A stretch of DNA of 64,000 nucleotides from Candidatus Latescibacterota bacterium (lineage in GTDB: Bacteria > Latescibacterota > UBA2968 > SICM01), in assembly GCA_965217865.1 (NCBI GenBank), contig CBDCJO010000002.1:3264001-3328000 (forward strand), in the 5' to 3' direction. The notes beneath the pieces are model-generated. The model ran no database searches. It saw nothing but the letters and a program-made list of their open reading frames with translations, and had not been told where the DNA came from. A program made the position numbers and the translations under genes. Positions 3,309 through 39,232 of this stretch are shown here, in pieces (position 1 is the first letter of the stretch; the number at the start of each line of letters is the position of its first letter).

Positions 3309-3610
3309 ATGAGCTCCAACGGCTTCGGTCCGGGAGCCGGGTTCTCGGGCGGCCTCAGTGCAGGCTACGACTTGGGCAGGCTGCGCTTCGAGGTCGAACA
3401 CCTTTGCCGCTACCAAGGGGATGACGTTTCGCCCCTCCGCGCGGCGGGCGGGGGGAATGAAGTGCTGGCAGGCAAGTCCGGCGAGTGGAGTCCGGAAGAA
3501 CCGCCCTCGGAGAGAATTTCCGGTTTCCGCGCCCACCAGTTCTTCGTGAACGCATACTATGATTTCGAGAACGACTCGCCTGGAGGCCCTATGTGGGCAC
3601 AGGTGCCGGC
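3309..3610 (+). pseudogene. Outer-membrane beta-barrel protein, N-terminal half
   Basis: GFSGGLSAGYDLGRLRFEVE...HQFFVNAYYDFEND. Confidence 0.6.
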
Positions 3611-3614
3611 TTGC

Positions 3615-4768: not shown

Positions 4769-4815
4769 TGTTCCGAAGAATCTTCCTGTATTGTCTCATC
4801 GTAAGCACATCCAAA

Positions 4816-6083
4816 GGTCAAGTCTTAAGCGTCCTGCAAAATGCAAGCCTTCAACTGGAGGTCCAGTGAGGTTCAGGCAACGGCTACCATTTCAGCCGGT
4901 GGTGCGATCTGTCGTTCCTCATAGAGCAGCTGGAGCTGGAGCAGTTCGGTGGACGTGATGTTGATATTCTGCCACCTGGCAGCGGCACGGATGAGAACAG
5001 CATAGACGAGCTTCAGGCAACTCTTTTCGGAGAAGAATCGCGGCAATGTTTTGGTTCGGCGGCGTTCCTCGACAAAGCTGCGTTCGATCAGGTTGGTGGT
5101 GCGGGCGAACTTCCGGAGTCGCCAGGGAAGCTGGAGGTGTGCGAGGAGAGCTTCGAGGTCCTCCGTGAGACACTTGCACAGACCGGGGAACTCCTTGCTG
5201 AACTTCTCCAGAAACTCTCGCACCGCACTTTGGCCGGCCTGAAGATCCGGGGCGTCACGAATCATCACCAGATACGGCTTGATCTCATGCCAGCGCGCAT
5301 CGGGCACCTTGGCTTCAAAGTTGCGCATCCGATGCACCCAGCAGCGTCCGCGCAGACTCTTCGGCCACATCTGGTCGATGGTCTGGATAAGCCCACCGGC
5401 TCCGTCGGTCGTGACGAACAGGGGTGCCGGTAAACCACGCCGGTCGAGATCCCGGACGAACTCAAGCCATGCCTCGCCGCTTTCTTTGCTGCCCAGACCC
5501 AGGGAGATCAGAACTTTCCGGCCGTCCAGTGTGATGCCCCAGGCGCACAGCACGGCCTCCCGGGTGATGCCGTGGGTACGAAGCGGCTCGTACAGGCCGT
5601 CCAGGAACAGGCACAGGAGAGGAAAGTCGCTGAGATCGCGTTCCTGGAAGGCCTGGTATTGTTCCCAAAGGACTTCGGTGACTTCGCTGACCTTGCTGCG
5701 GCTAAGCAGGCAACGCCCCTGCTCATCAGTGAAGGCGTCCTCGATGTCCCGGGTAGACAGTCCACGCGCGTACATCCCGGTTGCCAGGCGCTGCACCATC
5801 CCTGAGTCGCCGCGCAGAAGATCGTAAAGGCTGCACCGGTAGGGCTCCTCTGGATCCCTGACCTGAGGAATCGCGACCTCGAGGCGGCCTTCGGCAGTAT
5901 CCAGATAGCCCGGCTCATAGCCGCTACGGTAGCCTCGACGACCTTCACCGCGTTTATACCGATCGACACCCAGGTGGTCCCGCTGATGCGCCTCAAAACC
6001 CTCCTGGCAGATCAGCCGGGTGGACAACTGAACTAGCTGAGTCAACGCCTCCTGGGCGCTCTCGACATCCTGGAGTCCTTCGC
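4816..6083 (-). mobile_element. IS256-family element, 5'-truncated (transposase 4873 to about 6083)
   Basis: GYRSGY, LFLDGLY, TDG, RCWVHRMRN, RTTNLIERSF; terminus GGTCAAGTCTTAAGCGTCCTGCAAAATG shared with 61440-61467. Confidence 0.9.
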
Positions 6084-6094: not shown

Positions 6095-7486
6095 ATGCTC
6101 GCTTCCGGATCATGGGATGGCACGGTCAAGCTGTGGGAGGTTGCGACGGGCGAAAATATCGCCACCCTTGAGGGGCATACGTCTTGGGTCCGTTCCGTAT
6201 CGTTTTCGCCCGATGGGACAATGCTCGTTTCCAGGTCAGGGAAGGACAGGATTCTGCTGTGGGACGTGGCGACGGGAAATGCTGTTGCCCTGGAGGGGCA
6301 TACGTCTTGGGTCCGTTCCGTATCGTTTTCGCCCGATGGGACGATCCTCGCTATCGAGTCATGGAATGACAGGATTCTGCTGTGGGACGTTGCGGCAAGA
6401 GAAAATATCGCCACACTCAGGCATGGTGGGTCAGTCCGTTCCGTATCGTTTTCGCCCGATGGGACGATTCTCGCTTCAGGGTCAAATGATAGAACGGTCA
6501 GGCTGTGGGAGGTTGCGACGGGCGAAAATATCGCCACCCTGGAGGGGCATACGAATCGGATCAGGTCCGTATCGTTTTCGCCCGATGGGACGATTCTCGC
6601 TTCAGGGTCAAATGATAGAACGGCCAAGTTGTGGGAGGTTGCGACGGGCGAAAATATCGCCACCCTGGAGGGGCATACGTCTTCGGTCGAGTTTTTATCG
6701 TTTTCGCCCGATGGGACGATTCTCGCTTCCGGGGCATATGATAGAACGGTCAGGCTGTGGGAGGTTGCGACGGGCGAAAATATCGCCACCCTTGAGGGGC
6801 ATACATCTTGGGTCACTTCCGTGTCGTTTTCGCCCGATGGGACAATGCTCGTTTCCGGGTCAGGGGATGGCAGGATTCTGCTGTGGGACGTTGCGGCAAG
6901 AGAAAATATCGCCACTCTCAGGCATGGTGGGTCAGTCCAATCGGTGTCGTTTTCGCCCGATGGGACGACTTTCGCTTCCATAGCAGGGGATGGCACGGTC
7001 AGGCTGTGGGACGTTGCGGCAAGAGAAAATATCGCCACTCTCAGGCATGGTGGGTTCGTCCAATCGGTGTCGTTTTCGCCCGATGGGACGATTCTCGCTT
7101 CCGGGGCAGATGATGGCGTTGTCAAGCTATGGGGCGTGGCGACAAGAGAAAATATCGCCACCCTTAAGGGGCATACGTCTGGGGCCGGGCTCCATTCCGT
7201 GCCGTTTTCCCCCGATGGGACAATGCTCGTTTCCGGGTCAAGTGATGGCACGATTCTGCTGTGGGATATGTCGCCGTACAGCACACCTCAAGCCCCTAAT
7301 TCCGACTTTGATGGCGATGGTACTGTTGACCTTGCCGACTTTTTCCGGTTTGCCGAACAGTTTGGATCAAGTCAAGGCGATAAGGGATATGAAGCGCGGT
7401 ATGATCTGGATGGGGATGACATAATTGGGCTTGGTGATTTTTTTATCTTTGCCAACGACTTCGGCAAGGAAGCGTCATCAAATTGA
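6095..7486 (+). CDS. WD40-repeat protein with C-terminal dockerin/EF-hand-like domain, probably N-truncated
   Basis: About 9 GH...SVSFSPDG..LASG..D.T..LW repeats; DFDGDGTVDLADFF and DLDGDDIIGLGDFF; begins mid-repeat at the IS256 junction. Confidence 0.85.
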   Translation: MLASGSWDGTVKLWEVATGENIATLEGHTSWVRSVSFSPDGTMLVSRSGKDRILLWDVATGNAVALEGHTSWVRSVSFSPDGTILAIESWNDRILLWDVAARENIATLRHGGSVRSVSFSPDGTILASGSNDRTVRLWEVATGENIATLEGHTNRIRSVSFSPDGTILASGSNDRTAKLWEVATGENIATLEGHTSSVEFLSFSPDGTILASGAYDRTVRLWEVATGENIATLEGHTSWVTSVSFSPDGTMLVSGSGDGRILLWDVAARENIATLRHGGSVQSVSFSPDGTTFASIAGDGTVRLWDVAARENIATLRHGGFVQSVSFSPDGTILASGADDGVVKLWGVATRENIATLKGHTSGAGLHSVPFSPDGTMLVSGSSDGTILLWDMSPYSTPQAPNSDFDGDGTVDLADFFRFAEQFGSSQGDKGYEARYDLDGDDIIGLGDFFIFANDFGKEASSN

Positions 7487-16222: not shown

Positions 16223-16328
16223 AGATCGCCGAAGTATTGCGCGGGGTTTGAACGCAATCTGGAAGAGGCAGCAGCAGGCGCGGGAACGTCAGCGTGGGCC
16301 GGAGCGAGACTTTGGCCCCATCCGTTAG
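16223..16328 (+). pseudogene. Relaxase/mobilisation-protein-like C-terminal tail
   Basis: QQARERQRGPERDFGPIR-stop, resembling Mob protein tails. Confidence 0.4.
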
Positions 16329-18963
16329 TTTTCCTCCGGTGGCTTTGTCCCGGGAGCGTGGGGAGAATGAGCACTCCCGATATAGCAAGGAGCATACTCG
16401 AACAGTGATCACAGATGGTGCCCAACTACTTAGCCAGGACGGTGCCGCGACTGTCACCGCTACGAACCTTCTCGAACGCCTCGACCTCGAACGTCTAGAC
16501 ATCTCCAATCGCCTAGCTGTCGATCCGAAGCGGCGGGCCGATCTCGGGCAATTCTTCACCCCGGCAAGTGTGGCCGCTTTCATGGCGTCCATGCTCAAGG
16601 CACCCAACCCCCCGAAGGAACTCCGCATCCTTGACCCCGGAGGGGGAAGCGGTGTCCTGATGTCCGCTGCCGTAGCTGAGATTTGTGCTCGTCCTAGGCA
16701 TATGCGGCCAGCCGTTTTACACGCAACGGTTTGGGAGATTGACGAGCTTCTCTCCCGGGATATAACCCGCACGTTTGAGCACTGTCTTAGCGTGTGCCGT
16801 GAAGTCGGCGTTGCGTTTACAGGAGAACTCCGCCAAGAAAACTTCATCTTAGACGCCACAGATTTCGTTGGTGATCGTGGACTCTTCGGTTCAGAGGATC
16901 GTCCACGCTTCCATGTGGCGATCATGAACCCGCCATACCGCAAGCTCCGTAGCGACAGTCCAGAGAGAGCATGCTTGCGTGCGGTCGGCATTGAAACAAG
17001 TAACTTATATTCGGCCTTTGTCTGGCTGGCGATCAAGCTTCTTGAAGAGGACGGAGAACTTGTGGCGATCACTCCTAGGAGCTTCATGAACGGGGCCTAC
17101 TTTGGCCCGTTCCGACAGGCACTCGCTCGCGGCTTCTCTTTCCGGCGCGTCCACGTTTACGATGCGCGCGGCGACGCTTTCTCAGGTGATGGCGTCCTCC
17201 AAGAGAACGTCATCTTTCATGGAGTTCGGGGACGATCCCCTGCGCCGATCAAGATCACAACATCCTTCGGACCGTCTGACAGCGGTCTCGTCGAGCGGAC
17301 GATCCACCCCACGGACCTAATTTACCCAGGCGATAGCAAGTTCGTCCTGCACGTGGTCCCGGACGAAACCGCTGCCCGAATCTCTCAGCAGATGAGGGCT
17401 CTCCCGAATACACTCGCCGAACTCGGGGTTTCCGTCTCTACGGGTCGAGTTGTAGGCTTCCGGGTCAAGGAGCGCTTGCACACTGAAGCCCGACCAGGAG
17501 ACGCCCCTTTGATCTTTCCCGGACGTATCCCTGACGGCTTCGTGTCCTGGCCAAACTCCTCCGGCCAGAAGCCAAACGGACTGGCCGTGAGTGGGCCTAA
17601 TGATGAGTTGTTGCTTCCCTCTGGTTGGTACGTTCTGATCAACCGTTTCAGCGCCAAGGAGGAAAATCGCCGCGTTGTCGCTGCGCTTTATGATCCTGCC
17701 CGCATCGCCGCTGCTGCCGTCGCTTTCGATAACAAGTTGAACGTCCTGCACCGCGATAACGGCGGCCTCCCCGAAGACTTAGCAAAGGGCCTTGCGGTTT
17801 TCCTCAATAGCACCACTGTTGACGCTTACTTCCGACAATTCAGCGGCCACACCCAAGTCAATGCTACCGATCTGCGCGCGTTGCGTTTTCCAGACGCCGA
17901 GGACATTGAACAACTAGGCAGGCGCATAAGCGACTCGATGCCGCTGCAGGACGAGATCGACAAGCTAATCAGAGAGGAGATTACCGCAATGAGGGAAGGG
18001 GACGACCCCGTAGAAGTCAAACGAAGGATCCAGGCTGCCTTGGGGGTTTTGAAATTCCTACAAGCACCCAGAGGGCAAACCAACGAACGCTCGGCGCTCA
18101 CACTCCTCGGGTTGCTCGATCTTGCTCCCTCGGCTCCATGGGCCACGTCGAGTGCCCCGCTCTGCGGCGTCACTGAGCTGATGGACTGGATGGCCGCGAA
18201 ATATGGACGAAAGTACGCGGCCAATACACGCGAGACAATCCGCCGATTTACGCTTCACCAGTTCATAGAGATGGGCCTCGTGCTACTCAATCCAGACGAC
18301 CCCGCGCGCCCGCCAAACAGCCCGAAGAATGTCTACCAAATCGAGCCCTCCGCCCTTGAGCTGCTGCGCTGCTTCGAGACTAACGCTTGGGATTCGAACT
18401 TGTCCGCTTATCTCGATTCGATGGCAGACAAGAACCGCCTTATTAAGAAAGCGCGGCAGATGGAGCGTATCCCTGTCACGCTTCCCGACGGCAAGCAGCT
18501 TGAGCTCACCCCCGGCGGTCAAAACGTGCTCGTCAAGGAGATCATCGAGCAATTTGCGCCACGCTTTGTCCCCGGCGGACACGTGGTCTATGTCGGCGAC
18601 GCAGGCGAGAAGCACCTTCTCTATGACATCGAGTACCTGAATGGTCTTGGCGTTGAGATCGACCCGCACGGCAAGATGCCGGACGCGGTAGTGCATTACA
18701 TCGAACGCAACTGGCTCATTCTCATCGAAGCTGTTACGTCGCACGGTCCGGTAAATGTACTGCGGCACAACCAGCTCAAGGACCTCTTCGCCGGTTCGAC
18801 GGCGGGCCTAGTGTTCGTAACGACATTCCTCGACCGCGCGGCAATGCGGGAGTACCTGCCCGAGATCGCTTGGGAGACCGAAGTCTGGGTGGCTGATGCG
18901 CCAGACCACCTCATCCACTTCAATGGAGAGCGGTTCCTCGGACCGTATGAAACCGCCGAATGA
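16294..18963 (+). CDS. Fused Eco57I-type adenine methyltransferase and BsuBI/PstI-family restriction endonuclease (start uncertain)
   Basis: LGQFFTP, LDPGGGSG, NPPY, SGHTQVNATDLR; then NERSALTLL, NTRETIRRFTLHQF, HGKMPD, IEAVTSHGP, IAWETEVW, HFNGERFLGPY. Confidence 0.92.
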   Translation: MGRSETLAPSVSFPPVALSRERGENEHSRYSKEHTRTVITDGAQLLSQDGAATVTATNLLERLDLERLDISNRLAVDPKRRADLGQFFTPASVAAFMASMLKAPNPPKELRILDPGGGSGVLMSAAVAEICARPRHMRPAVLHATVWEIDELLSRDITRTFEHCLSVCREVGVAFTGELRQENFILDATDFVGDRGLFGSEDRPRFHVAIMNPPYRKLRSDSPERACLRAVGIETSNLYSAFVWLAIKLLEEDGELVAITPRSFMNGAYFGPFRQALARGFSFRRVHVYDARGDAFSGDGVLQENVIFHGVRGRSPAPIKITTSFGPSDSGLVERTIHPTDLIYPGDSKFVLHVVPDETAARISQQMRALPNTLAELGVSVSTGRVVGFRVKERLHTEARPGDAPLIFPGRIPDGFVSWPNSSGQKPNGLAVSGPNDELLLPSGWYVLINRFSAKEENRRVVAALYDPARIAAAAVAFDNKLNVLHRDNGGLPEDLAKGLAVFLNSTTVDAYFRQFSGHTQVNATDLRALRFPDAEDIEQLGRRISDSMPLQDEIDKLIREEITAMREGDDPVEVKRRIQAALGVLKFLQAPRGQTNERSALTLLGLLDLAPSAPWATSSAPLCGVTELMDWMAAKYGRKYAANTRETIRRFTLHQFIEMGLVLLNPDDPARPPNSPKNVYQIEPSALELLRCFETNAWDSNLSAYLDSMADKNRLIKKARQMERIPVTLPDGKQLELTPGGQNVLVKEIIEQFAPRFVPGGHVVYVGDAGEKHLLYDIEYLNGLGVEIDPHGKMPDAVVHYIERNWLILIEAVTSHGPVNVLRHNQLKDLFAGSTAGLVFVTTFLDRAAMREYLPEIAWETEVWVADAPDHLIHFNGERFLGPYETAE

Positions 18964-19076: not shown

Positions 19077-20687
19077 GTGCCCTTTACGTTTTCTGTTCCC
19101 AGCCTAAACGGCCAAACCGAAATCAGTATAGAGCCTGGATCTTCCGTGGTTTTTGTGGGTGCTAATGGCGGGGGAAAAACCAGACTCGCCGTGTATATGG
19201 AATCCGTATTAGCCCTGAACGCGCACCGTATTTCTGCGCATCGGGCGCTTACGCTCAATCCGGGCATCTCCAAAATCAGTGAACGGGCCGCTCTATCCGG
19301 CCTGAGGACCGGATATCCCGACGAAAAGTCCACATTGGACTACCGAGAAGGTTACCGATGGCATAGTAACGAGGCCACTTGGCTACTTAACGACTTCGAC
19401 TTCCTAGTACAGGCCCTCTTCGCCGATCAGATGATCATATCTCTGAAGACGCATCAAAGAAACCGTAACGGCGATCATAGTGTCGCCGATCCTACAAAGT
19501 TTGAGAGTCTCGTCACAATCTGGGAACGCTTGCTGCCAGATCGTCAACTCCATATTTCAGGGGACAACATCCAGGCCTCCGTTTGCGGATCGGAAGAGTA
19601 CTACACGGCTTCCGATATGAGCGACGGCGAACGCGCGATTTTCTACATGATAAGTCAGACTCTCACCGCCGCCTCAAATTCGATCCTCATATTCGACGAG
19701 CCAGAACTCCATGTGCACAGCTCGATCATTGCCAAGGTTTGGGACGAGTTGGAGGCTGCCCGACAAGACTGTGCTTTCGTGTTCATCACCCACGACCTGG
19801 GATTTGCTGCCTCTCGCGTGGCCCAGAAGTTCATCATCCGTGACTTCGATCCTTCCCCTCACTGGACCATCGAAAAGGTTCCGGAAAACACCGGGTTTGA
19901 CGAAGAAATCACAACTCTTATACTCGGCAGCCGACGGCCAATTCTCTTTGTTGAGGGTGATGAGAATAGTCTTGATCAAGCAATCTATCGATGCAGCTAT
20001 CCTGACTGGACTGTTATTCCGAGAGGATCTTGCCGGGACGTCATCCACTCCGTTGTAACGATGAGGAAAAATCAGGAGCTCACCCGCGTAACCTGTTCGG
20101 GCATCGTAGACGCTGACGACCGTCAAGCCGATGAGATTGCCCAGCTGGCCAGTCTCGGTATTGCCGTCTTGCCAGTCCCGGAGATCGAGAACGTCATCCT
20201 TCTGCCGCCGGTCAGTCGAGCCCTCGCCATGAGCAATGGCTATAGGGACGACGCTCTCGAAACCAAATTGAATGAGTTGAAGGCAGATGTTTTTGCAACT
20301 CTGAATTCAGCCGAAGCGATCGACGCTGTGGTAACGCGGTATTGCCGTCGGCGGATCGACCGATTCCTAAAACAAATCGACCTTAAAGAAGCCACCAACG
20401 TTTCCAACATCACGGACGAATACGATCGCCAGATAGCTGCACTCAACATTCCAGCTATTGCCCAACAAGCTAAAACTCGCATTGAAGAGGCCATTCGTGA
20501 CAACGACCTTCCAAAACTTCTGGCCAACTACGACAACAAAGGCTTGCTGCAACTGGCGGCCAAACATCTGAAGAGTTTAAAGCTGGCAGATTTTAAGGGT
20601 TGGCTTACCAGGGTCTTAAGGAATAACACTGAGACCTCACTGGTCACGGCCATTGACAACTTCCTCCCAAAAATTGAGCCTCAATGA
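19077..20687 (+). CDS. ABC/AAA_21 ATPase fused to a DUF4435-like TOPRIM domain (OLD-like)
   Basis: Walker A GANGGGKT, MSDGER, FDEPELHVH, ITHD; FVEG...GIVDADD. Confidence 0.85.
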   Translation: MPFTFSVPSLNGQTEISIEPGSSVVFVGANGGGKTRLAVYMESVLALNAHRISAHRALTLNPGISKISERAALSGLRTGYPDEKSTLDYREGYRWHSNEATWLLNDFDFLVQALFADQMIISLKTHQRNRNGDHSVADPTKFESLVTIWERLLPDRQLHISGDNIQASVCGSEEYYTASDMSDGERAIFYMISQTLTAASNSILIFDEPELHVHSSIIAKVWDELEAARQDCAFVFITHDLGFAASRVAQKFIIRDFDPSPHWTIEKVPENTGFDEEITTLILGSRRPILFVEGDENSLDQAIYRCSYPDWTVIPRGSCRDVIHSVVTMRKNQELTRVTCSGIVDADDRQADEIAQLASLGIAVLPVPEIENVILLPPVSRALAMSNGYRDDALETKLNELKADVFATLNSAEAIDAVVTRYCRRRIDRFLKQIDLKEATNVSNITDEYDRQIAALNIPAIAQQAKTRIEEAIRDNDLPKLLANYDNKGLLQLAAKHLKSLKLADFKGWLTRVLRNNTETSLVTAIDNFLPKIEPQ

Positions 20688-26984: not shown

Positions 26985-27705
26985 GCTCGTCGCTGGGTCG
27001 TCGAATGTACCCACGCTTGGCACAACCCAGGGGGATGCGTCGCTTGAGGCATTGCCTGGTCAGTACGCTGAGCTCGATTTCGGCGATGTTGAGCCAGCTA
27101 TCGTGTTTCGGCGTGTAGCGTAGTTCAAGACACCCAACGCGCGTGCCTTCGAGGGTAGAAAGGCTTCGTAAAGCTGGCGGATCGATCCAGCCACTCGCGT
27201 TCTCCTTCTGTCAGACGAACAATGTACTTCTTCTTAGGCATACCGATGGCTCATTCACATGCGTAGTGCTGTAGCCGTCCCCACAACGATTCAATTTCTC
27301 GGCCCGTTGGCCGCATCAAGTATATAACTACGCTGCTTGAGGTGGACTACCCGGATGCGGAAGTCGTGGTCCTGGTCTGCGACAACCTCAGTACTCACAC
27401 CATCGCATCTCTCTACGAGGCCTTCCCACCCGAAAAGGCCCGTTCTCTAGCCAAACGCCTCGGATTGCGCTACACCCCCAAGCACGGCAGCTGGCTCAAT
27501 GTCGCCGAGATCGAACTGAGCGTCCTTGCCAGACAATGCCTGCACAGCCGCATTCCTGACCTGCAGACCCTCACCAACCAGGTGGAGGCCTGGAAATGTG
27601 ATCGAAACGAGAAACACAGAACCATTGATTGGCAGTTCAGGACCACCGACGCCCGCATCAAACTGAAGAAGCTCTATCCCAAGTTTTAGGTGTCAGGGTG
27701 TACTA
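26985..27705. mobile_element. Two IS630-family remnants in opposite orientation (plus-strand C-terminus 27342-27689)
   Basis: [34 protein letters not shown]; similar motif on the minus strand near 27050-27130. Confidence 0.8.
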
Positions 27706-27772
27706 GTTTGGGGTTGAAAAGCTTGTGGTAAACCTTCGCCTGATCAACGGAATGGACTGAAAGGGAGGGGAT

Positions 27773-27886
27773 ATGAGCATCAGGAAGAAGCCCGGAAGGA
27801 GTCTGCTCATACCACGGCCAAGTGCGATCGATCTGCCAAAACGAATGTTCGAACCGAAGATCAAAAGTGGAGAACCATCGGGATGA
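27773..27886 (+). CDS. 37-aa peptide coupled to the downstream operon
   Basis: GGGAGG RBS; MSIRKKPGRSLLIPRPSAIDLPKRMFEPKIKSGEPSG; ATGA overlap with the next gene. Confidence 0.5.
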   Translation: MSIRKKPGRSLLIPRPSAIDLPKRMFEPKIKSGEPSG

Positions 27887-28308
27887 AAAAGAAGGATTGG
27901 ATTCTATTAGCCCTTCTGGCCGCAAAGGACTACAGATTACAGCCGGTACAGTTACAGAAGAGCCTTTTTCTGTTGAGCGAATCCGGGCTTCTGGGGGGGC
28001 GCAGTTTCTACAAGTTCGAGCCGTATCACTATGGCCCGTTTTCGCATGAGGTATATAAAGAGGCCGACCGGATGGTCCTTGAGGGACTGATCGTCGTGTT
28101 GCCCGTACCGGGCGTGCGCTGGCGAGAATACTGGATCACAGAAGAGGGCAAGATAGCCGCAGAAAAAATCGCGACGAAACCGGAGCAGCCTTGGGAATAT
28201 TTGAAGCTGCTTGTCACGTGGATTCAGGATCTTTCGTTCCAGGATCTGATCAAAACGATCTACGCGCACTTCCCAGCCTACAAGGTCAACAGCGTTTTCG
28301 GAGAGTAA
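27883..28308 (+). CDS. SocA/Panacea (DUF4065)- or YwgA-like winged-helix protein
   Basis: QLQKSLFLL...YKFEPYHYGPFSHEVY; C-terminal LIKTIY.HFP.Y. Confidence 0.7.
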   Translation: MKKKDWILLALLAAKDYRLQPVQLQKSLFLLSESGLLGGRSFYKFEPYHYGPFSHEVYKEADRMVLEGLIVVLPVPGVRWREYWITEEGKIAAEKIATKPEQPWEYLKLLVTWIQDLSFQDLIKTIYAHFPAYKVNSVFGE

Positions 28309-28310
28309 CA

Positions 28311-29090
28311 GTGACTCTGATCGTAGGGATCTTATGTAAAGACGGAGTGGTCGTGGGATCAGACGGAGCGGCGACACTCGGATCACTCGGTTCCCAGACG
28401 GCTCGTCAGCCAACGAAAAAGCTCTGCGGCGTCGGGAATCGAATCATCGTTGGCGTATCTGGCCCCGTTGGGATGTCTCAACTACTGGTTGATCAAGTTG
28501 AATCTCTCAATGGGACAAACAAGCTGTCCAAAACGCAGTGCAAGAGCGCTGCTGATGCCATGCGTACCATCAGCACTGAATTCAAGAAAGACATCATCCC
28601 AGCAGCGCAAACGGCGCAAAGTGTAGCCAATCTCGTCGGACATCAAAACGCAGCCACGAGTGCCTTATGTTCAAGTGTTGTGGCCTTGCCGGTCAAGGGA
28701 AAGCCCACACTTCTTCAGTTCGATTACCAAGGTGCCGGAGAAGCTGCGAGCGAGGATCTTCCCTTTCTTTCGGTCGGGAGCGAACAGAAGACGGCAGACC
28801 CATTCTTGGCGTTTATCAGAAGGCTATTCTGGGAGAAACGTTTGCCAAAATTGGCGGAAGGCGTCTTTGCAACCACTTGGACGCTAAAGCAGGCAATCCG
28901 AACGAGCACCGGCGGGGTTTCGGATCCTATCCAATTGATGGTGCTGGAAGCAGATAGGGTGAGGGATATCACATCTGAGTTGGATGACCACGAAGCGAAT
29001 GTTGAAGCCTTGGAAGATCATATCAGAGAATTCAGCACTGAATACAGCAAAGTAGAGCCTGATTCGATGCCCAAACCGCCTGAACCCTAA
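28311..29090 (+). CDS. Proteasome-beta-like Ntn hydrolase
   Basis: GTG start after GGAGAG; M-T1LIVGILCKDGVVVGSD17, K36, GVSG, SVGS, TGGV. Confidence 0.75.
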   Translation: MTLIVGILCKDGVVVGSDGAATLGSLGSQTARQPTKKLCGVGNRIIVGVSGPVGMSQLLVDQVESLNGTNKLSKTQCKSAADAMRTISTEFKKDIIPAAQTAQSVANLVGHQNAATSALCSSVVALPVKGKPTLLQFDYQGAGEAASEDLPFLSVGSEQKTADPFLAFIRRLFWEKRLPKLAEGVFATTWTLKQAIRTSTGGVSDPIQLMVLEADRVRDITSELDDHEANVEALEDHIREFSTEYSKVEPDSMPKPPEP

Positions 29091-29161: not shown

Positions 29162-29601
29162 TCAGTCGAGTTCGCCACGCAGCCACCGGGCCAGCGCCTT
29201 CTTCGGAGAAGAGATCTCCCTCACAGACGTATAGTAGTAGTCTTCCCACCCCCATTCAGGGAGACCGGTGAAGAGCATGAGGTTCAGGGGATAGACTTCG
29301 GAGTCTGTACATCTTCTTAAATCGTCGCGGAAGAGGAAGGTCTTCCGAGTTCTACCATGACGCCTTCGTCGGGCGGGGTACCGTTCACGATCGCAAAAAT
29401 ACCGTCCGCCTCGACAACGTCCTTCAGGTCAGCCTGTCCCACCTTGTATGCCCATCCGGACGCGGTGAAGTCGATCTGATTGTTTCGCTCCCACACCTCC
29501 GCTCCCAGCGAACCGATCGCCTCTACAAAGGCGGGAAGCAGTCCTTGTCTCTGCTGCTGTGAAAACCCGTAGGGGTTTGCCAGGTAAACGCTCTTCTTCA
29601 C
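29162..29601 (-). pseudogene. Nucleoside 2-deoxyribosyltransferase with small deletions and a frameshift
   Basis: VYLANPYGFS, VNGTPPDEGVMVELG, FLFRDD, YPLNLMLF. Confidence 0.8.
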
Positions 29602-29844
29602 GGTCGGACTCCTTTCTTGAACGGTCACGGATGGGCTACAGCATCCACGGATGAAGAGAACCGGAGGTCCCGTGAGTTTCACGCAACCGGTTCAGCGTCG
29701 TTCCTTGACGAAGCTGCGTTCGACGAGGCTTGGCTATTACCTTTGTGGTGATTGCCGTCAGTGCAGAAAGTGTTATAGACGAAAGGATGCTACGTGACAT
29801 GAATGGTGAGTCGATATGGCGTCCGTGCAAGAGCGAAGACCCGA

Positions 29845-32433: not shown

Positions 32434-35100
32434 TCAGGGACGGGTGTGAAGGTAACCCCCATTCGTGTGACTGTTGCACTCCACTGTCCCGCTCCACTGT
32501 CCCCCACTCGTCGGCACCGGACCAATCTCAGCGTCCGCGTCAGGCAGGGGGATCGCCATCCTCGCCCGTACCTCGACCCGGTAGCTGTCCATGTCGATCG
32601 CCTCGAGAATGCCCTTTGACAGGTCCTGCTCCTCAGGCGCCGGCAACTTGGGCGTCAGGAAGGTTAGAAATATGGACAGCTTCTCCCATTCCGCGTTTGT
32701 GTACGGCAGAATCGACGAGAGGAACCCATAAGTCCGCGTGAACACCTTCGTTTTGCCCTTGAAATCGACTTGGCCGTCCTCGTCGAGGTCGGATCTGTAG
32801 ATCGCCACGCAGCCATCCAGGATCGGATCGATCCGGTCGCGGTCGGCTCCGCTCAAGTAGAGAGCGACGAGTTCCTCCACCTGATCCCGGTTGTAGACCT
32901 GATAACCATCGAGGCCGGCCCTCAGGTCGTGTAGCTTGTCCGGATCGGTTTCTTCGCTGAGAATCGTGGTTCGATAGTAAGGTTCGAACGACGCTCCGAT
33001 GCCCTCGGCATCGTTCATGAAGTCCAGCACGAAAGTGTCGTGCTTCTGCGGACGCGCACGGTTCAATCGCGAGATCGTCTGAACCGCCTTGATGCCCGAG
33101 AGCACCTTGTCCACGTACATGGTGTGCAAGAGCGGCTCGTCGTAGCCGGTCTGGAACTTGTCGGCGCAAACCAGAAACCGGTAAGGGTCTTCCCGTATCC
33201 TGTCGGCAATCTTGCCAGACGGAAATCCATTGAGCGACGCCTCGGTGACCCTCCGTCCGCCGTATTCGTGCTCGCCCGAGAAGGCGACCACTGCCCGGTA
33301 GGGGCTCTTGCGTTCCTCCAGATACTCCTCGAAGGAGTGAAAATAACGGATCGCCCGTTGGATACCGTCGGTCACCACCATGGCCCGAGCATGGCCGCCG
33401 ATCTTAAGGCGCGCAATGACCTGATCGTGAAAGTGATCGACCATGATCTCCGCCTTCTGGCGGATGGCGTGCTCGTGCGATTCGATATATCTTCGAAGCT
33501 TCCTCTGTGCTCGTTTGGTGTCAAACAGAGGATCGTCCTCCACCGTCTTCATGAGCCGGCAATAGCTGTCCACCGGCGTGTAGTGCTCCAGCACATCCAG
33601 AATGAAGCCCTCCTGTATCGCCTGTTTCATCGTGTAGCTGTGGAATGGAACGTGCCCGACCTGCCCGCCCTTGGGTACGGGCTCTCCGAAAATCTCCAGC
33701 GTCTTGTTTTTCGGCGTTGCGGTAAACGCGAAGTAGCTGGCGTTGGGCAGCAGTCTCCTGGACTCCATCAGCCGGTTGATCTTGTCCTCGGTCGTCTCGT
33801 CTTCGTCCCCGGCACCGGCCGTCCCCAGGGCCATGGAGACCGCGGCGGACGTCCGGCCGCCCTGGCTCGAATGGGCTTCGTCGATGATGATGGCGAACCT
33901 GCGGCCTCGGTGTTCATCACCGATCTCGTCGAGAACGAACGGGAACTTCTGGACCGTCGTGATGATGATCTTCTTGCCGGTCTTCAAGAACGCTCGCAGG
34001 TCACCCGACCGCTCCGCATGGCCGACGACGGATTCCACCTGGGCGAACTGCCTGATCGTGTCACGGATCTGCCTGTCGAGCACCAGCCGGTCGGTGACAA
34101 CGATGATGGAGTCGAAAGTCGGTTTGCCGCCTGTTTCCAGTTCGATCATTTGGTGTGCGAGCCAGGCAATGGAGTTGCTCTTGCCCGATCCCGCCGAATG
34201 TTGGATCAGGTAGCGCTTGCCTGCGCCGGAAGCCTTCACGTCCGCCAGCAGCTTGCGAACCACGTCGAGTTGGTGGAAACGAGGGAAGATCTGCTTCGGG
34301 GCCTTCTTCCGGCCTTTGTCGTCCCTCTCCTCGACCACCTGGGCGTAGTTTTCGAGGATGTCCGTCAGGTTCCGCCTGGTCAGAACCTCCTTCCAGAAGT
34401 AGCCGGTCTTGAGGCCGGCGGGATTCGGCGGATTGCCCCCACCGTCGTTCCAACCCTGGTTGAAAGGCAGGAACCACGATCCCTCGCCTTTGAGGTGGGT
34501 GCACATCCGCACCTCGTGATCGTCCACCGCGAAATGGACGGCGCAGCCGCCGAACCGGAAAAGCAGTTCCCTCGGGTCGCGGTCGCGCTTGTACTGCTCG
34601 ATGGCGTCCTCGACGGTCTGCTTCGTCAGGCTGTTCTTGAGCTCGAACGTAGCGACCGGCAGGCCGTTGACGAAGAGCGCCACGTCGAGCGACAGCCTGG
34701 TTTCGTCCTTCGAGTAGTGCAGCTGGCGCGTGACGCTGAAGACGTTCGCGGCGAACAACTCCTCCGCCCTGGCGTTGCCGGGAGACGGCGTGCCAAAGAA
34801 GAACTCGACAGAACAAGGACCGTGCTTCACGCCGTTGCGCAGTACGTCGATGACGCCGCGTTTGGCGATCTGGCCCTGAAGGCGGTGGAGGAACTGGACG
34901 CGCTGCGGGCCATCCGTGCCGATGCCGAGCGTCTCGACGGTCTCTGGCTGCGTGGCGATCAGGAAGGCGAGAAGCTTGGCCAGGTCGACGGCATGGTCGC
35001 GGTCATAGTCCCTCGGGTCCCCGGCGGCATAGCCGGCCTCGTCGATCAGCGAGCGGACGATGAGCGATTCCAGGCCTTTCTCGCTGGTGTCAGTCGTCAC
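32434..35100 (-). pseudogene. hsdR: Type I restriction subunit R, C-terminally truncated
   Basis: FELKN, HSAGSGKS, DEAHSSQ, FTATP, QTISRLNR; after PVPTSGG the frame reads into the iteron block. Confidence 0.9.
32457..32507 (+). repeat. CTCCACTGT iteron-like block (longer copy at 50526-50590)
   Basis: CCCCATTCGTGTGACTGT..CACTCCACTGTCCCGCTCCACT shared between the two sites. Confidence 0.75.
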
Positions 35101-36469
35101 GACAGGCCTCCTCCATCACCTCTGCCTCGTCTGGTTCCGTCCCCTCTTCCAGGTCGTTGGTTCCGTCGAATGCGGGCTCTTCCCCAGACCCCGGAATCTC
35201 AACATCACGCACGTCGAGCCTGCCGCTCACGACGTCGCCGATCAGGCGGGTGCGATATTCGCGCAGCAGCTCGATTTGGCGGCGGGCGCGGTCAACCGCG
35301 GTGTCAATGTCGGCGGTGGCCTTGTCGAGATAGCGGACGATGGCGGCTTGCTCGGGGAGGGGTGGGAGGGATTGTTTCATACCACCAACAAACTGCCAAT
35401 CAGCACGGGGCATCTTGGCACCAAAAGTCGAAGCGCTGATTGCATCGACAATCGGTTTTGATCGAAGAAGGTATTTCAGATAGTTTGACATCAGGTCACC
35501 ATCACGGGGGCGTAACACTAGAAACTCCCCGACGCAAACCCCTTTGCGATCAGGTCGTGTGGCCTTTGCCAAGTAGGGCCGTAGCTTGCCGAAAAGTACA
35601 TCTCCGGCCCGGAATCGTTTTACGTTACCATCAAAGCCAACGTCCTGTCCGGCTTCACGAAACCTGCCAGTCCAACTCTCGACGTGTTCGAGAGCAATGT
35701 AAATTTCATCAGCCCCACGCTCGCTAGCTTGGTCAACAATATTTGCTACATACCCTTTAAGGCGAGCCACCTCCCAATGCTCTGGCACGTCGCCGAGCCA
35801 CTCGACGCCGGAGGGCTTGAGGGGAACGTCGGGATCCAGGCCGCGGGTGACGGCGCGGTGGATGACGGCCTGCTTCTGCTCCTCAAGCAACTTGATCAGC
35901 TTCTGCTTGGCGCGGATGTAGGCCCTGATGCGTTCGTCGGTGTGGTCGAGATAGCGGACGATGGTGGCTTGCTCGGGGAGGGGGGGGAGAACCAACGACT
36001 GGTTTCCAATATCACCTACGCTGACAGCGTCGTACGTGGATCCAGTGGAAACCAACTTCAAACCATGACCAAGTGTTTCGAGTTGGTAGTGAGAGAATCC
36101 AGTGTGGGAAATTCTCTCGTTTGAGGTAATAGCACAAAGTCCCCGACCAATGCCATATTCCTGATCGGCTGTGTTTAGCTTGCCGACAGGTGCGCGAACT
36201 GACATAAGTATCGCACCCATCGGACTGATTCTTGATGGAGCACGACAAAATTGCACAGGATTCGGGTGATGCGCCCCGAACTCCGCACAGCCTTGCAAGA
36301 ATGGTGGGCCGATGCGCTCGTCACTGCAATCGTTCGAGGATGGAGACTGACCCATAAGTAGCGTCACTGAGTATTTCAATCGCCGCACCTCCCAATGCTC
36401 TGGCACGTCGCCGAGCCACTCGACGCCGGAGGGTTTGTAGGAGGGGTAGGAGTGGAGGTCTCTAATCAC
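35090..36469 (-). CDS. hsdS: Type I RM specificity subunit
   Basis: Duplicated KPSGVEWLGDVPEHW and PPLPEQA.IVRYLD; two TRDs. Confidence 0.95.
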   Translation of the reverse strand: MIRDLHSYPSYKPSGVEWLGDVPEHWEVRRLKYSVTLLMGQSPSSNDCSDERIGPPFLQGCAEFGAHHPNPVQFCRAPSRISPMGAILMSVRAPVGKLNTADQEYGIGRGLCAITSNERISHTGFSHYQLETLGHGLKLVSTGSTYDAVSVGDIGNQSLVLPPLPEQATIVRYLDHTDERIRAYIRAKQKLIKLLEEQKQAVIHRAVTRGLDPDVPLKPSGVEWLGDVPEHWEVARLKGYVANIVDQASERGADEIYIALEHVESWTGRFREAGQDVGFDGNVKRFRAGDVLFGKLRPYLAKATRPDRKGVCVGEFLVLRPRDGDLMSNYLKYLLRSKPIVDAISASTFGAKMPRADWQFVGGMKQSLPPLPEQAAIVRYLDKATADIDTAVDRARRQIELLREYRTRLIGDVVSGRLDVRDVEIPGSGEEPAFDGTNDLEEGTEPDEAEVMEEACRDD

Positions 36470-37271
36470 GGAATGCTCTCAACCCGGTCGTCACGTAACC
36501 ATCCAGCTTCCGATGGAGGAGTGAAATCAGAGTGAAGTAGTCCGCTGCATCATCTTCACCCTTCCAGAGTATCTTCGGTTCGTGCGCGCGAGGGTTCCTG
36601 ACGGCCGCAAGGCAACCCTTCAGCAGCTCAGCAAATCCCCGGTGTTCACTCTTTTCCGTCTCGGTTTGCAACGAGTTGAACGCCAGCACTGGCCGGCTGG
36701 TAGAGAAGACCCGATCCACAAGGGTCGCTCCGTCCCCATCAACTCCCGACATCTCGCGAATCCGTTGCGCCAGCCCTTTGGTCGCCTCGAAGACAGCATG
36801 GAAGTAGTCGTCCTGCATAAGTTCAGCGCGACAGTACTTCATTACTTCCGGATGGATGCGCCGCCCCTGAAACTTTGCCTGGATCGTGTCTGCTCGCCGC
36901 TCTGCCTCGCCCAGCGTCTGTGCAGCCCGGCGCTTCCGGAAATTCCCGTCAGATCCGTACTCAAGCCCTGAGAATGCCAAGATTGTGTTCAGTGCTTGAC
37001 GGTGCGGTTCGAATTCCTCATTCCTGCCAACGAAACGGGCAGGCGTAAGGAAAGCCTTAATGAAGTTGAGTGTTTGGTTGGCGCACCTGTCCCTGTTCTG
37101 GACATCGAGGAATACCCAATAGAGCCTCCGCCATTTGGTGGATTCTCCCGAGCCATCAATCAGCCCGCAATGAGCCAGCATACGAGTGATATCCGGTCCA
37201 GTACCGCAATCACCGAGCAGTTTTGCCAACGACTCGATCTGACCTGCGGGGAACGAAGGAACCATGCTCAT
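36462..37271 (-). CDS. TIGR02391-family protein
   Basis: YFHAVFEATK, DGATLVDRVF, RNPRAH; overlaps both hsdM and hsdS. Confidence 0.88.
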   Translation of the reverse strand: MSMVPSFPAGQIESLAKLLGDCGTGPDITRMLAHCGLIDGSGESTKWRRLYWVFLDVQNRDRCANQTLNFIKAFLTPARFVGRNEEFEPHRQALNTILAFSGLEYGSDGNFRKRRAAQTLGEAERRADTIQAKFQGRRIHPEVMKYCRAELMQDDYFHAVFEATKGLAQRIREMSGVDGDGATLVDRVFSTSRPVLAFNSLQTETEKSEHRGFAELLKGCLAAVRNPRAHEPKILWKGEDDAADYFTLISLLHRKLDGYVTTGLRAFRD

Positions 37272-39232
37272 CTTTCCATTGTCCCAATAATCTTTTCGAG
37301 CAACCCCTCCGTCTCCTGCTCCAGCGCCAGAATTTCCGCCCGGATCTCCTCCAGCTTGCGCAACGGCTGTGGCTTGTAGAAGTATCGGGTGAAGCTGACC
37401 TCGTAGCCGGTCTTGATGCTGTCCGGCACAAACCATGCGTCAGGCGCATAGGGCAGCACTTCTCGGCGCAGGAACGCCTCGATTCCGCCCTCCTCCAACA
37501 GCGGGATTTGCTCGGTGTCACGCAGCTCAGTGTCGGGTTCGTACTCGACGACGACGGGCTTGCCCTTGACGGTGGCTGCGAACAGACCGCGCACGGGGTC
37601 GGGCTCGGTGCCCTTCCTGAGGATCTTCTTGATGACCGGAGGCGCGGTCTCCGAACGCCCGGCTTCCTCCTTGAGCGCCTTGATCTCTTTGGCAGTGCAG
37701 GCGCGCTCGGGGTCGATCCCCTCAAGGCGTAACGGCCGATCGACCGTTACCTTCCGGTAGCCGAAGGCCCGGTTCGGGAAGATCTTGGACTGCCCGGTTT
37801 CCTCGAACGCAAGAAACACGTCGCAGATGCGCCGGATGTCCTCGCCCGACAGTTCGCAGTTCTTCTTGCCGAGGTTCCTGCGCAGCGGCTTGAACCACTT
37901 GGTGGCGTCAATGAGTTGGACCTTGCCCCGGCGATGCTCCGGCTTGCGGTTGCCGAGCACCCAGATATAGGTCGCGATGCCCGTGTTGTAGAACATGTTG
38001 AGTGGCAACGCGACGACGGCCTCCAACCAGTCGTTCTCGATGATCCAGCGCCGGATGTTGCTCTCGCCCTGGCCGGCGTCGCCGGTGAACAGGGAACTGC
38101 CGTTGTGGACCTCGGCGATGCGGCTGCCCAACCTGGTGCCGTGTTTCATCTTGCTCAGCATGTTGGCCAGAAACAGCATCTGGCCGTCGCTGGAGCGGGT
38201 GATCAGCGAGTACTCCGGATCACCGGCGTGCCCGGTGACGAAGCGCCGGTCGCGCATGTCTTTCCTCCCACCCATGCGCTCAAGATCAGTCTTCCAGGAC
38301 TTGCCGTAGGGTGGATTTGAGAGCATGAAGTCAAATTCCCGGGACGGGAATGCATCTCCGGACAGGGTCGAGCCGAACTTCATGTTCTCGGCCTCGTTTC
38401 CCTCACCCTTCAGGATGAGATCGGCCTTGCTGATGGCGAAGGTCTCGGGGTTTACCTCCTGTCCGTAGAGGTGAACAGACACCTCCCTGCCGTTCTCTGC
38501 GGCGAGCTTGACGAGCGTCTCTTCGGCAACGGTCAGCATCCCGCCGGTGCCACAGGCGCCGTCATAGACGAGATAGGTGCCTGACCGAATCTTGTCTGCG
38601 ATGGGCGCAAGGATCAGACGGGACATCAGCTCCACGACGTCACGCGGAGTAAAATGCTCTCCGGCTTCCTCGTTGTTCTCTTCGTTGAAGCGACGGATCA
38701 ACTCCTCGAAGATCGTCCCCATGGAGTGATTGTCGAGTCCGGGAAGGCGAATGGAGCCATCCTGGTGCAAGACGGGTTTCGGACTCAGATTGATCGAGCT
38801 GTCGATGAACTTCTCGATCAGGAATCCAAGCGCGCCGGCTTCGATCAGGGTGGGAATCTGATTACGGAACTGAAACTTGGTGAGGACCTCCTGGACGTTC
38901 GGGGAGAAGCCGTCCAGGAAAGCCTCGAAATCGGCTCTGAGTTGCTGTTGCTTGCCCCGGGAGGCGAGATCACGCAGGCGGAAGGAGGACGTGTTATAGA
39001 AGGCCTGGCCGGACGCCTGGCAGAGCGCAGCATGCTGATTGGCGACGCCGGCCCTGTCGAGTTGCCCTTTCATCTTGAGCACGGCCTCTTTGGTCGGCTC
39101 GAGCACCGCATCCAGACGCCGAATGACCGTCATCGGCAGAATGACGTCTCGATACTTGCCCCGAACATAGACGTCGCGCAGCACATCGTCAGCGATGTTC
39201 CAGATGAAGTTGCCGATATTCAGGCTGCTCAT
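37268..39232 (-). CDS. hsdM: Type I RM methyltransferase
   Basis: GEHFTPR, DGACGTGGML, NPPY, FYNTGIATY. Confidence 0.95.
   Translation of the reverse strand: MSSLNIGNFIWNIADDVLRDVYVRGKYRDVILPMTVIRRLDAVLEPTKEAVLKMKGQLDRAGVANQHAALCQASGQAFYNTSSFRLRDLASRGKQQQLRADFEAFLDGFSPNVQEVLTKFQFRNQIPTLIEAGALGFLIEKFIDSSINLSPKPVLHQDGSIRLPGLDNHSMGTIFEELIRRFNEENNEEAGEHFTPRDVVELMSRLILAPIADKIRSGTYLVYDGACGTGGMLTVAEETLVKLAAENGREVSVHLYGQEVNPETFAISKADLILKGEGNEAENMKFGSTLSGDAFPSREFDFMLSNPPYGKSWKTDLERMGGRKDMRDRRFVTGHAGDPEYSLITRSSDGQMLFLANMLSKMKHGTRLGSRIAEVHNGSSLFTGDAGQGESNIRRWIIENDWLEAVVALPLNMFYNTGIATYIWVLGNRKPEHRRGKVQLIDATKWFKPLRRNLGKKNCELSGEDIRRICDVFLAFEETGQSKIFPNRAFGYRKVTVDRPLRLEGIDPERACTAKEIKALKEEAGRSETAPPVIKKILRKGTEPDPVRGLFAATVKGKPVVVEYEPDTELRDTEQIPLLEEGGIEAFLRREVLPYAPDAWFVPDSIKTGYEVSFTRYFYKPQPLRKLEEIRAEILALEQETEGLLEKIIGTMER

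What the first reader, a model, noticed from the sequence alone, without database searches (positions are those of the whole stretch)
27773..29090. Candidate new system: small peptide + SocA/Panacea-like protein + proteasome-beta-like Thr hydrolase
Seen: three tightly coupled ORFs (ATGA overlap, then a 2-bp gap) with RBSs before the first and third, intact in an island where most backbone has decayed. Gene 3 starts M-T and has Asp17, a Lys near position 33-36, GVSG and a GS motif, the catalytic layout of proteasome beta/HslV/Anbu Ntn hydrolases, although GSG is replaced by GSE. Gene 2 has the LQK...YGP signature. Known: Caulobacter SocA is a proteolytic adaptor antitoxin, and Panacea domains pair with diverse toxins. 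Inference: a TA or anti-phage module in which the Ntn enzyme is the toxin, or an adaptor with a dedicated protease/ligase. The peptide could be a substrate or regulator. I know of no described system with this composition.
Basis: partly seen in the sequence, partly recalled or inferred. Interest (0 to 1): 0.8.

Follow-up and report, generated by a model that had tools for sequence, protein, structure and literature searches.

The report
Antitoxin-like gene paired with proteasome-like enzyme
Two neighbouring genes, one for an antitoxin-like protein and one for a relative of the proteasome's cutting subunit, occur together in many unrelated bacteria and ride on transposons; they likely form an undescribed toxin-antitoxin pair whose toxin would be a protease, while the small peptide in front is not conserved.

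Summary
The real unit is two genes, not three. Gene 3 (28311-29090, GTG start) is a proteasome-beta-fold Ntn protein (pLDDT 95, Z 22 to 20S beta) with Thr1, Asp17, Lys36 and Gly50 near-invariant in 355 relatives. Gene 2 (27883-28308) is a Panacea/DarG-C-clan protein; its best fold match is DarG (7yk3), but it misses Pfam's Panacea cut-off. All 83 Ntn loci carry gene 2, and 79 of 86 gene-2 loci carry the Ntn gene. The pair is patchy across many phyla, has no conserved third gene, and is sole cargo of an IS1595 transposon in one genome. Intact Ntn genes were not found without a gene-2 sequence, whereas gene 2 also occurs alone or with other partners. The 37-aa peptide is not conserved. The window's Gly-to-Glu change beside the active site is real and unique (1 of 355), so this copy may be weakened. 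Best reading: a type II toxin-antitoxin pair with a protease toxin (0.5). Toxicity and binding are untested; complex folding was unavailable. The enzyme resembles the catalogued, context-less PHI family. Ten literature searches found no such pair; earlier scan notes saw PHI-like genes on transposons, not this pairing.

The parts
27883..28308 (+). Gene 2: 141-aa winged-helix-type protein of the Panacea (DUF4065)/DarG-C-terminal/YwgA clan; predicted antitoxin. Family motifs PVQLQKSLF, FxPYxYGPF, and a C-terminal YPxYxxNSVF followed usually by two residues.
   Evidence: AF2 pLDDT 92.8; best fold match DarG 7yk3_D, Z 11.2, rmsd 4.3, 136 aligned, Foldseek E 4.5e-4; 19 of 84 relatives hit PF13274 weakly, best E 6.4e-5; PADLOC PDC-M19A N-terminal half E 2e-16, DarG E 8.5e-5
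28311..29090 (+). Gene 3: 259-aa proteasome-beta-like Ntn protein without propeptide (GTG start, Thr1), with a helical insertion after helix 2 and a long C-terminal helix; predicted threonine peptidase and predicted toxin. This copy has Glu157 where the family has Gly.
   Evidence: Pfam Proteasome E 1.3e-9, above cut-off; AF2 pLDDT 95.0; Z 22.5, rmsd 2.2, 179 aligned to 20S beta 6z46_H; Z 21.2, rmsd 3.4, 215 aligned to Anbu 5loy_A; conservation in 355 sequences
27773..27886 (+). 37-aa ORF with an SD-like string; not conserved, not part of the family module (at most a local leader ORF)
27332..27707 (+). 3' remnant of a multicopy DDE_3 (IS630-type; family label recalled) transposase element ending 175 bp upstream of gene 2
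   Evidence: Pfam DDE_3 E 2e-12; copies elsewhere in the genome at 94-97% identity
24774..32505 (.). 7.7-kb block, containing the pair, duplicated in this genome at 99.9% identity (second copy seen at the overlapping C1 end / C2 start, so two real copies, three hits)

Best explanation
The two genes likely form a type II toxin-antitoxin module in which the proteasome-like protein would be a toxic threonine peptidase and the Panacea/DarG-clan protein upstream would bind and silence it. Shown: the fold and catalytic residues of the enzyme, the antitoxin-clan fold of the partner, near-obligate adjacency across phyla, co-inheritance, carriage as transposon cargo. Inferred: Met removal exposes Thr1 without a propeptide, so the enzyme would be active unless held by the partner, which is translated first; the partner's invariant C-terminal NSVF tail and acidic helix are candidate binding surfaces; loss or displacement of the partner (element loss, or a phage trigger) would free the protease to cut a host protein and arrest growth. 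The target is not identified. The window's own copy may be weakened by Glu157.
For: Enzyme: Thr1 338 of 355 (2 Ser, 15 gaps), Asp17 353, Lys36 355, Gly50 355, the triad and oxyanion glycine named in PMC8665760. Partner: best solved match is DarG, whose C-terminal domain binds DarT and is homologous to DUF4065 according to passages of PMC13621843; the family profile matches plasmid proteins annotated as SocA-domain antitoxins at E about 1e-23, one of which passes the PF13274 cut-off; standalone Panacea neutralises toxins directly (passages of PMC10440598). Pairing: 83 of 83 Ntn loci have gene 2, 81 directly upstream; 79 of 86 gene-2 loci have the Ntn gene, 3 end too soon, 4 lack it; 160 junctions span -4 to +26 nt; distant Ntn subfamilies are paired too (L139, L240-L242). 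One-way dependence: in three phylum samples (168, 401, 401 genomes) all 16 genomes with an intact Ntn gene have gene 2 beside it, and the four Ntn copies without gene 2 lack their N-terminus with Thr1; gene 2 occurs without the Ntn gene in five genomes, in a provirus-like contig and twice in a phage contig. Mobility: sole cargo of a 2476-bp IS1595 element with 24-bp inverted repeats and 8-bp target duplications in G971; no conserved third gene. Tree distances correlate, r 0.54 against at most 0.17 in 500 permutations, 126 pairs.
Against: Two loci have a broken gene 2 beside an apparently intact Ntn gene: L073 (several lesions) and L027 (internal deletion; Ntn cut by the contig end). Broken Ntn with intact gene 2 (10 loci) against the reverse (2) is not significant after scaling for gene length (p 0.15). 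Two loci have the genes convergent rather than in an operon (L077, L239). Gene 2 fails the Pfam Panacea cut-off and has GPF, not the GPV signature; its DarG match leads ordinary PadR/MarR matches by only 1.2 Z. The second-shell proteasome motif Asp166/Ser169 (numbering recalled) appears replaced by a TxPGG motif (my reading of the alignment). Only 6 of 70 loci scanned have a clear restriction or TA neighbour, with no background control. I recall no protease acting as the toxin of a type II pair, and in RosmerTA the protease is the antitoxin.
Confidence: 0.5

Rival explanations
1. Gene 2 is an activator or substrate adaptor for its own dedicated protease: neither protein is toxic alone, and together they degrade a specific foreign or host protein. 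The conserved C-terminal NSVF tail would dock on the enzyme the way activator tails dock on HslV or the proteasome (analogy recalled).
For: SocA acts as a proteolytic adaptor (passage of PMC8832971). The NSVF motif is followed by exactly two residues in 137 of 204 sequences and is poorly ordered in the monomer model (pLDDT 76 and 48 in the last blocks). It explains why the enzyme is never alone and tolerates L073 and L027. No AAA partner is conserved nearby.
Against: The same fold is used without any protease in DarG, in DUF488 fusions, beside an HD-domain gene and beside DUF2335, which fits a general toxin-binding domain better. Most tested PanA proteins neutralise without proteases.
Confidence: 0.25
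2. Gene 2 is a winged-helix repressor and the peptidase is its anti-repressor, a switch that controls the mobile element carrying them, as ImmA does for ImmR.
For: Many PadR/MarR matches at Z 8-10; 4 of 84 relatives hit Pfam PadR weakly; 19 of 70 loci have transposase, integrase, phage or plasmid genes within two genes.
Against: The helix that would read DNA is acidic: mean net charge -2.4, positive in about 1.5% of 135 sequences. No clear operator-like palindrome upstream in the window and the upstream DNA has no match in 252 loci. Many loci sit among housekeeping genes.
Confidence: 0.12
3. Roles are reversed as in RosmerTA: gene 2 is the toxin and the peptidase is the antitoxin that destroys it.
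For: Precedent for protease antitoxins; L073 and L027 keep the enzyme and lose gene 2.
Against: Ten loci keep an intact gene 2 with a broken enzyme gene, including an insertion that separates Thr1 from the rest in L022 and a premature stop in L048; gene 2 homologues also stand without the enzyme.
Confidence: 0.07
4. The enzyme is a connectase-like ligase or transpeptidase that attaches gene 2 protein, or the peptide, to a target.
For: Connectase shows that this fold can ligate (PMC8665760); the partner has a conserved free C-terminus.
Against: The model keeps helices H1-H2 that connectase lacks, and scores Z 13.1 to connectase against 21-22 to 20S beta and Anbu; the peptide is not conserved.
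Confidence: 0.06

Closest known systems
[quoted passage not shown]
   Same: Proteasome-beta fold, Thr1/Asp17/Lys33-type triad and oxyanion Gly, no propeptide, long insertion after H1/H2, C-terminal helix H5, scattered distribution over several phyla.
   Different: That paper reports no gene-context or co-occurrence pattern for any of its 22 families; here the enzyme has a near-obligate partner. Identity with PHI was not tested by sequence.
PanA-PanT (Panacea/DUF4065, PF13274) type II toxin-antitoxin systems; Kurata 2022 PMC8832971, Ernits 2023 PMC10440598
   Same: Two-gene module with a Panacea-clan protein beside a variable partner; LQK and GP motifs; patchy, mobile distribution; partner switching.
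   Different: No proteasome/Ntn/HslV partner in the text or searchable supplements of either paper (one file was cut when stored); gene 2 is below the Pfam cut-off, has GPF for GPV and a distinct NSVF C-terminus.
DarG C-terminal domain of DarTG (PDB 7YK3)
   Same: Best solved structural match over the whole of gene 2, Z 11.2, 136 residues; acidic surface; toxin-binding role per PMC13621843.
   Different: No macrodomain, no DarT; partner is a peptidase-fold protein; 16% identity.
Caulobacter SocAB (type VI TA; SocA adaptor to ClpXP)
   Same: Panacea-clan protein functionally tied to a protease.
   Different: Here the protease-like gene is encoded in the module and no SocB-like toxin gene is conserved.
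Anbu (PDB 5LOX/5LOY/5NYG)
   Same: Beta-like subunit with long C-terminal helix and no AAA partner; longest structural alignment (215 residues, Z 21.2).
   Different: Anbu's operon has transglutaminase, ATP-grasp and alpha-E genes (PMC5666114), none conserved here; 20% identity.

Membership tests
Proteasome-like Ntn family (PF00227) | Pfam match above the curated cut-off | tested here: met
   38.4 bits against 22.4
Proteasome-like Ntn family (PF00227) | Proteasome-beta fold | tested here: met
   pLDDT 95; Z 22.5, rmsd 2.2, 179 aligned to 6z46_H
Proteasome-like Ntn family (PF00227) | Thr1, Asp17, Lys33-equivalent, Gly47-equivalent | tested here: met
   338, 353, 355 and 355 of 355; register to solved beta subunits
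Proteasome-like Ntn family (PF00227) | Gly-Ser-Gly motif around Ser129 | tested here: inconclusive
   Family has Gly at position 157 in 339 of 355 and Ala in 12; the window alone has Glu; effect on activity not testable here
Proteasome-like Ntn family (PF00227) | Peptidase activity and ring assembly | not testable with these tools
   Needs biochemistry; complex folding was not available
Canonical 20S beta / HslV | NCBIfam equivalog cut-off; alpha subunit or HslU partner | tested here: not met
   32.4 bits against 224 (TIGR03634), 13.7 against 137 (HslV); no such neighbour conserved; the genome has separate, stronger PF00227 genes
PHI (Fuchs 2021) | Long helical insertion after H1/H2 and C-terminal H5 | tested here: met
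   Model helices 80-104, 106-116 and 221-246 against the paper's description
PHI (Fuchs 2021) | Clusters by sequence with the PHI set (representative WP_012956871.1) | not testable with these tools
   The sequence set is in an external repository; the held supplement has legends only
Anbu | Operon with transglutaminase, ATP-grasp, alpha-E | tested here: not met
   Not among recurrent neighbours of 169 loci or Pfam hits of 252 neighbours
Connectase | Lacks H1-H2; two-helix insertion at S3/S4 | tested here: not met
   H1 (53-68) and H2 (80-104) present; no helix between strands 20-34
Panacea / SocA (PF13274) | Pfam match above cut-off 25.7 | tested here: not met
   No hit for the window protein; 19 of 84 relatives hit weakly, best E 6.4e-5; L067 relative 19.9 bits
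Panacea / SocA (PF13274) | GPV signature | tested here: not met
   GP in 84 of 84, followed by Phe in 82; signature described in PMC8832971
Panacea / SocA (PF13274) | Shared fold with a solved Panacea protein | tested here: inconclusive
   No solved Panacea chain found by sequence; best match is DarG; a predicted viral Panacea protein ranks 10th, E 0.015
Type II toxin-antitoxin system | Conserved two-gene module, tightly spaced, patchy and mobile | tested here: met
Type II toxin-antitoxin system | One product toxic, neutralised by direct binding of the other | not testable with these tools
   Needs toxicity, rescue and pull-down assays
Catalogued defence system (PADLOC 2.0) | Both genes match models of one system | tested here: not met
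   Gene 3: no match; gene 2 matches only the N-terminal part of PDC-M19A and other fusions

The most novel reading that the evidence does not exclude
A toxin-antitoxin and anti-phage module whose toxin is a free-standing proteasome-beta-type protease, held off by a Panacea/DarG-clan sensor that plugs it with a conserved C-terminal tail and releases it on a phage cue, with phages carrying orphan copies of the antitoxin as a counter-measure. It would be a new class of TA toxin and the first partner and function for one of the orphan proteasome homologue families.
Probability: 0.3. Interest if true: 0.88.

Novelty: new variant of a known kind. Interest (0 to 1): 0.68.

Why it matters
Prokaryotes encode over twenty uncharacterised proteasome homologue families, and the 2021 survey that named them found no gene context for any. 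This family has a near-obligate partner from a known antitoxin clan, which turns 'what do stand-alone proteasome subunits do' into a two-plasmid experiment in E. coli. If the enzyme is the toxin, it adds a protease to the TA toxin repertoire and a new client class to Panacea-type antitoxins; if gene 2 is an activator or adaptor, it is a minimal ATP-independent regulator of a proteasome-fold protease. Either outcome is new.

Tried and rejected
Inter-protein covariation on 135 paired sequences gave no signal above shuffled pairings (top z 7.0 against 6.9-9.7), although within-chain scores reached z 11: uninformative at this depth. Peptide as third component: rejected. A conserved third gene: none; the commonest other neighbour family among 169 loci occurs in 8 loci. 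Fusion of gene 2 to the enzyme: one unrelated long hit among 7994 candidates of 348-2000 aa, weak evidence; the in-frame join in L027 is a deletion. Sequencing error for GSE: rejected. General decay of the window enzyme: not seen, 1 deviation at 36 conserved columns, equal to the median. Pseudogene asymmetry: 10 against 2, p 0.15; a second count adding four partner-less remnants gave p 0.04 but is post hoc and not used. Two loci first read as broken (L184, L192) proved intact. No match of the window enzyme in the phage or plasmid collections, of the L067 enzyme in plasmids or viral contigs, or of gene 2 and the L168 orphan in annotated phages. No sigma-70-like promoter or terminator found, 0 against 1.2 and 1.7 expected. 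No RNA holder listed among public runs. No solved Panacea structure found by sequence. Defence-island enrichment: counted without a background, so inconclusive. Look-ups of earlier scan findings by sequence and place were empty.

Full report
Observation. SD-like strings precede all three. A multicopy DDE_3 transposase remnant ends at 27707, 175 bp before gene 2. The region is a defence-rich island: a fused BsuBI/PstI-type restriction-modification gene at 16294-18963, an AriAB (PARIS) match at 19077-20687 (E 1e-141), and a type I R-M cluster at 32434-39232. The pair lies in a 7.7-kb block present twice in the genome at 99.9% identity; the third hit is a contig overlap.

Gene 3. Pfam Proteasome scores above cut-off, while HslV and 20S equivalog models are far below theirs. 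The AlphaFold2 model (pLDDT 95.0) aligns to 20S beta subunits (Z 22.5, rmsd 2.2, 179 residues), Anbu (Z 21.2, 215 residues), HslV (19.0), BPH (17.7) and connectase (13.1). A profile finds 1736 representatives at E 0.001 or better and 585 at 1e-30. In 355 distinct sequences Thr1 is in 338 (2 Ser, 15 gaps), Asp17 in 353, Lys36 and Gly50 in all. Position 157 is Gly in 339 and Ala in 12; only the window has Glu, its single deviation at 36 conserved columns. The allele is in both genomic copies and in contigs of four public runs from three studies, one of which may be the window's source. It sits beside the Ser129-equivalent (numbering recalled; register), so this copy may be weakened; that is inference. 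The extra helices after H2 and the long C-terminal helix match the description of PHI in PMC8665760 (main text parts 1-5 of 6 and the supplement's legends read; figures and the external alignments not seen). That paper states it found no gene-context or co-occurrence pattern for its 22 families. I could not compare sequences with PHI, so WPH or ACC remain possible.

Gene 2. The model (pLDDT 92.8) matches DarG 7yk3 best over its whole length (Z 11.2, rmsd 4.3, 136 residues; Foldseek E 4.5e-4), then PadR/MarR winged helices over about 80 residues (Z up to 10.0). The window protein has no Panacea hit; 19 of 84 relatives hit PF13274 weakly. The link is transitive: the family profile matches halophile plasmid proteins annotated as SocA-domain antitoxins at E about 1e-23, and one of these passes the Pfam cut-off; a Stenotrophomonas member is named 'SocA family protein' by NCBI. 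Passages of PMC13621843 call DUF4065 homologous to the DarT-binding C-terminal domain of DarG (the Deep 2023 structure paper was seen only as a reference title). The family has GPF for the GPV signature. Its would-be recognition helix is acidic (mean net charge -2.4 over 135 sequences), which argues against DNA binding. Its C-terminal NSVF motif is followed by two residues in 137 of 204 sequences and is poorly ordered in the monomer model.

Pairing. All 83 loci carry gene 2: 81 directly upstream, one separated by an insertion (L022), one convergent (L077). Hosts named in the record titles span Acidobacteriota, Chloroflexota, Proteobacteria, Planctomycetota, Gemmatimonadota, candidate-phyla bacteria and others. 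The reverse scan kept the best 80 of 336 metagenome relatives of gene 2 plus 6 viral loci: 79 of 86 have gene 3, 3 end too soon, 4 lack it. Because these are the closest hits, I also sampled whole genomes. Among 168 genomes of the window's phylum 6 have the full-length enzyme and all 6 have gene 2 adjacent; the other 27 genomes with matches have only weak N-terminal hits, and the two I checked have no gene 2. Gene 2 at E below 1e-30 is in 11 of the 168; in 5 it has a C-terminal extension and no enzyme, with a DUF2335 gene next to it in at least three. In two further phylum samples of 401 genomes each, 6 and 5 genomes matched; all 10 genomes with an intact enzyme have gene 2 adjacent (L239 convergent), including a distant subfamily (L240-L242), and the four enzyme copies without gene 2 (L247, L249, L252, L253) have lost their N-terminus. 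Junctions span -4 to +26 nt in 160 loci. Trees of 126 pairs correlate (r 0.54; permutations at most 0.17; 25 of 57 and 24 of 39 supported splits shared), which shows co-inheritance only.

Context. No third gene is conserved. Of 70 loci whose two nearest genes on each side were scanned (252 proteins; 10 near-duplicate loci and 3 without a called start left out), I count 19 with transposase, integrase, resolvase, phage structural or plasmid genes and 6 with clear restriction or TA genes; many others sit among housekeeping genes; no background was run. L071 has the pair between a terminase and a portal gene. In G971 the pair is the only cargo of a 2476-bp IS1595-family element with 24-bp inverted repeats and 8-bp target duplications: four full hits (two with identical flanks, so probably three sites) and two derivatives that deleted gene 2 together with the enzyme's N-terminal half. 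L007 and L008 are a second IS1595-linked 2.4-kb duplication, without detectable inverted repeats; G012 has a 1.45-kb duplication of just the pair.

The peptide. No homologue in 252 loci, no DNA match upstream, NTGA starts in 71 of 163 homologues, and an SD-led upstream ORF in 1 of 158. It is not part of the module, though it could be translated locally.

Mechanism. The architecture, the antitoxin-clan partner that switches partners, the one-way dependence and the transposon carriage favour a type II toxin-antitoxin pair with the enzyme as toxin (0.5). Against it: L073 and L027 keep an apparently intact enzyme gene beside a broken gene 2; broken enzymes (L022, L028, L048, L053, L079, L125, L146, L151, L155, L157) outnumber these 10 to 2, but not significantly (p 0.15); two loci are convergent. 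Rivals: activator or adaptor with a dedicated protease (0.25), repressor with anti-repressor peptidase (0.12), RosmerTA-like reversal (0.07), ligase (0.06). Toxicity, binding, target and phage defence are all untested.

Novelty. PADLOC, NCBIfam and PHROGs name no such system. Passages and searchable supplements of the two Panacea surveys (PMC8832971, 3 files; PMC10440598, 2 files, one cut when stored) contain no proteasome, Ntn or HslV partner; unnamed clusters in those tables could still hide it. Ten full-text searches (listings and abstract starts only unless cited above; PMC5666114 passages; PMC11825919 abstract start only) found no description of the pair; the library lacks most subscription papers. 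Earlier scan notes report PHI-like genes on transposons, one with an AbrB-type partner; they are unchecked leads and do not describe this pairing. Verdict: both parts belong to known clans, the combination appears undescribed; new variant of a known kind, interest 0.68.

Noticed in passing
L256:3345-5820 (G971; also L254, L255, L257, L258, L259): IS1595-family transporter element carrying only this gene pair, multicopy, with two internal-deletion derivatives; L254 and L256 have swapped flanking duplications, suggesting recombination between copies.
   Followed up: yes
L168:6001-6423 and 6717-7220: Two tandem gene-2 homologues without the enzyme in an 86-kb phage contig, next to replication and nucleotide-metabolism-like genes; possible orphan antitoxins.
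   Followed up: partly
L222:1501-2686, L223:1501-2708, L226:686-1914: Gene-2 homologues with a ~70-aa C-terminal extension, coupled to a DUF2335 membrane-protein gene instead of the enzyme; looks like another partner for the same domain.
   Followed up: partly
L169:5971-7694, L179:1450-3160: Distant gene-2 domain fused to DUF488 (PADLOC PDC-M19A-like), followed by a conserved ~270-aa gene without Pfam match; in L169 beside a DNA methylase and a long restriction-like gene.
   Followed up: partly
L173:1501-1869 (G000:C2 near 5002160): A second, short and unrelated Met-Thr proteasome-like ORF in the window's genome beside a transposase, with no gene-2 partner; probably truncated.
   Followed up: partly
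L186 and L191 (G000:C2:1616674-1617968), L187: The genome also has an adjacent pair of PF00227 genes and one more strong PF00227 gene, probably its ordinary proteasome alpha/beta pair and HslV.
   Followed up: no
window 19077-20687: Fused AriAB (PARIS) match, PADLOC E 1e-141.
   Followed up: no
window 16294-18963: 889-aa ORF joining a methylase (Eco57I/N6) to a BsuBI/PstI endonuclease domain.
   Followed up: no
window 32434-39232: Type I R-M cluster with a Hypoth_Ymh / PD-Lambda-3_B-like gene between hsdM and hsdS; several near-identical and diverged copies of the cluster lie elsewhere in the genome.
   Followed up: no
L062, L070, L075, L080, about 3600-5460: In a Methylobacterium/Lichenihabitans group three genes without Pfam match (about 275, 150 and 180 aa) are conserved directly upstream of the pair.
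   Followed up: partly
L139:4001-5224, L240:1053-2250: Distant enzyme subfamilies (profile E 2e-9 to 1e-17) still paired with gene 2; the L240 group lacks the LQK lysine (LMK/MKT variant).
   Followed up: partly
window 29317-29682: Nucleoside 2-deoxyribosyltransferase-like fragment on the minus strand just downstream, within DNA repeated elsewhere in the genome.
   Followed up: no
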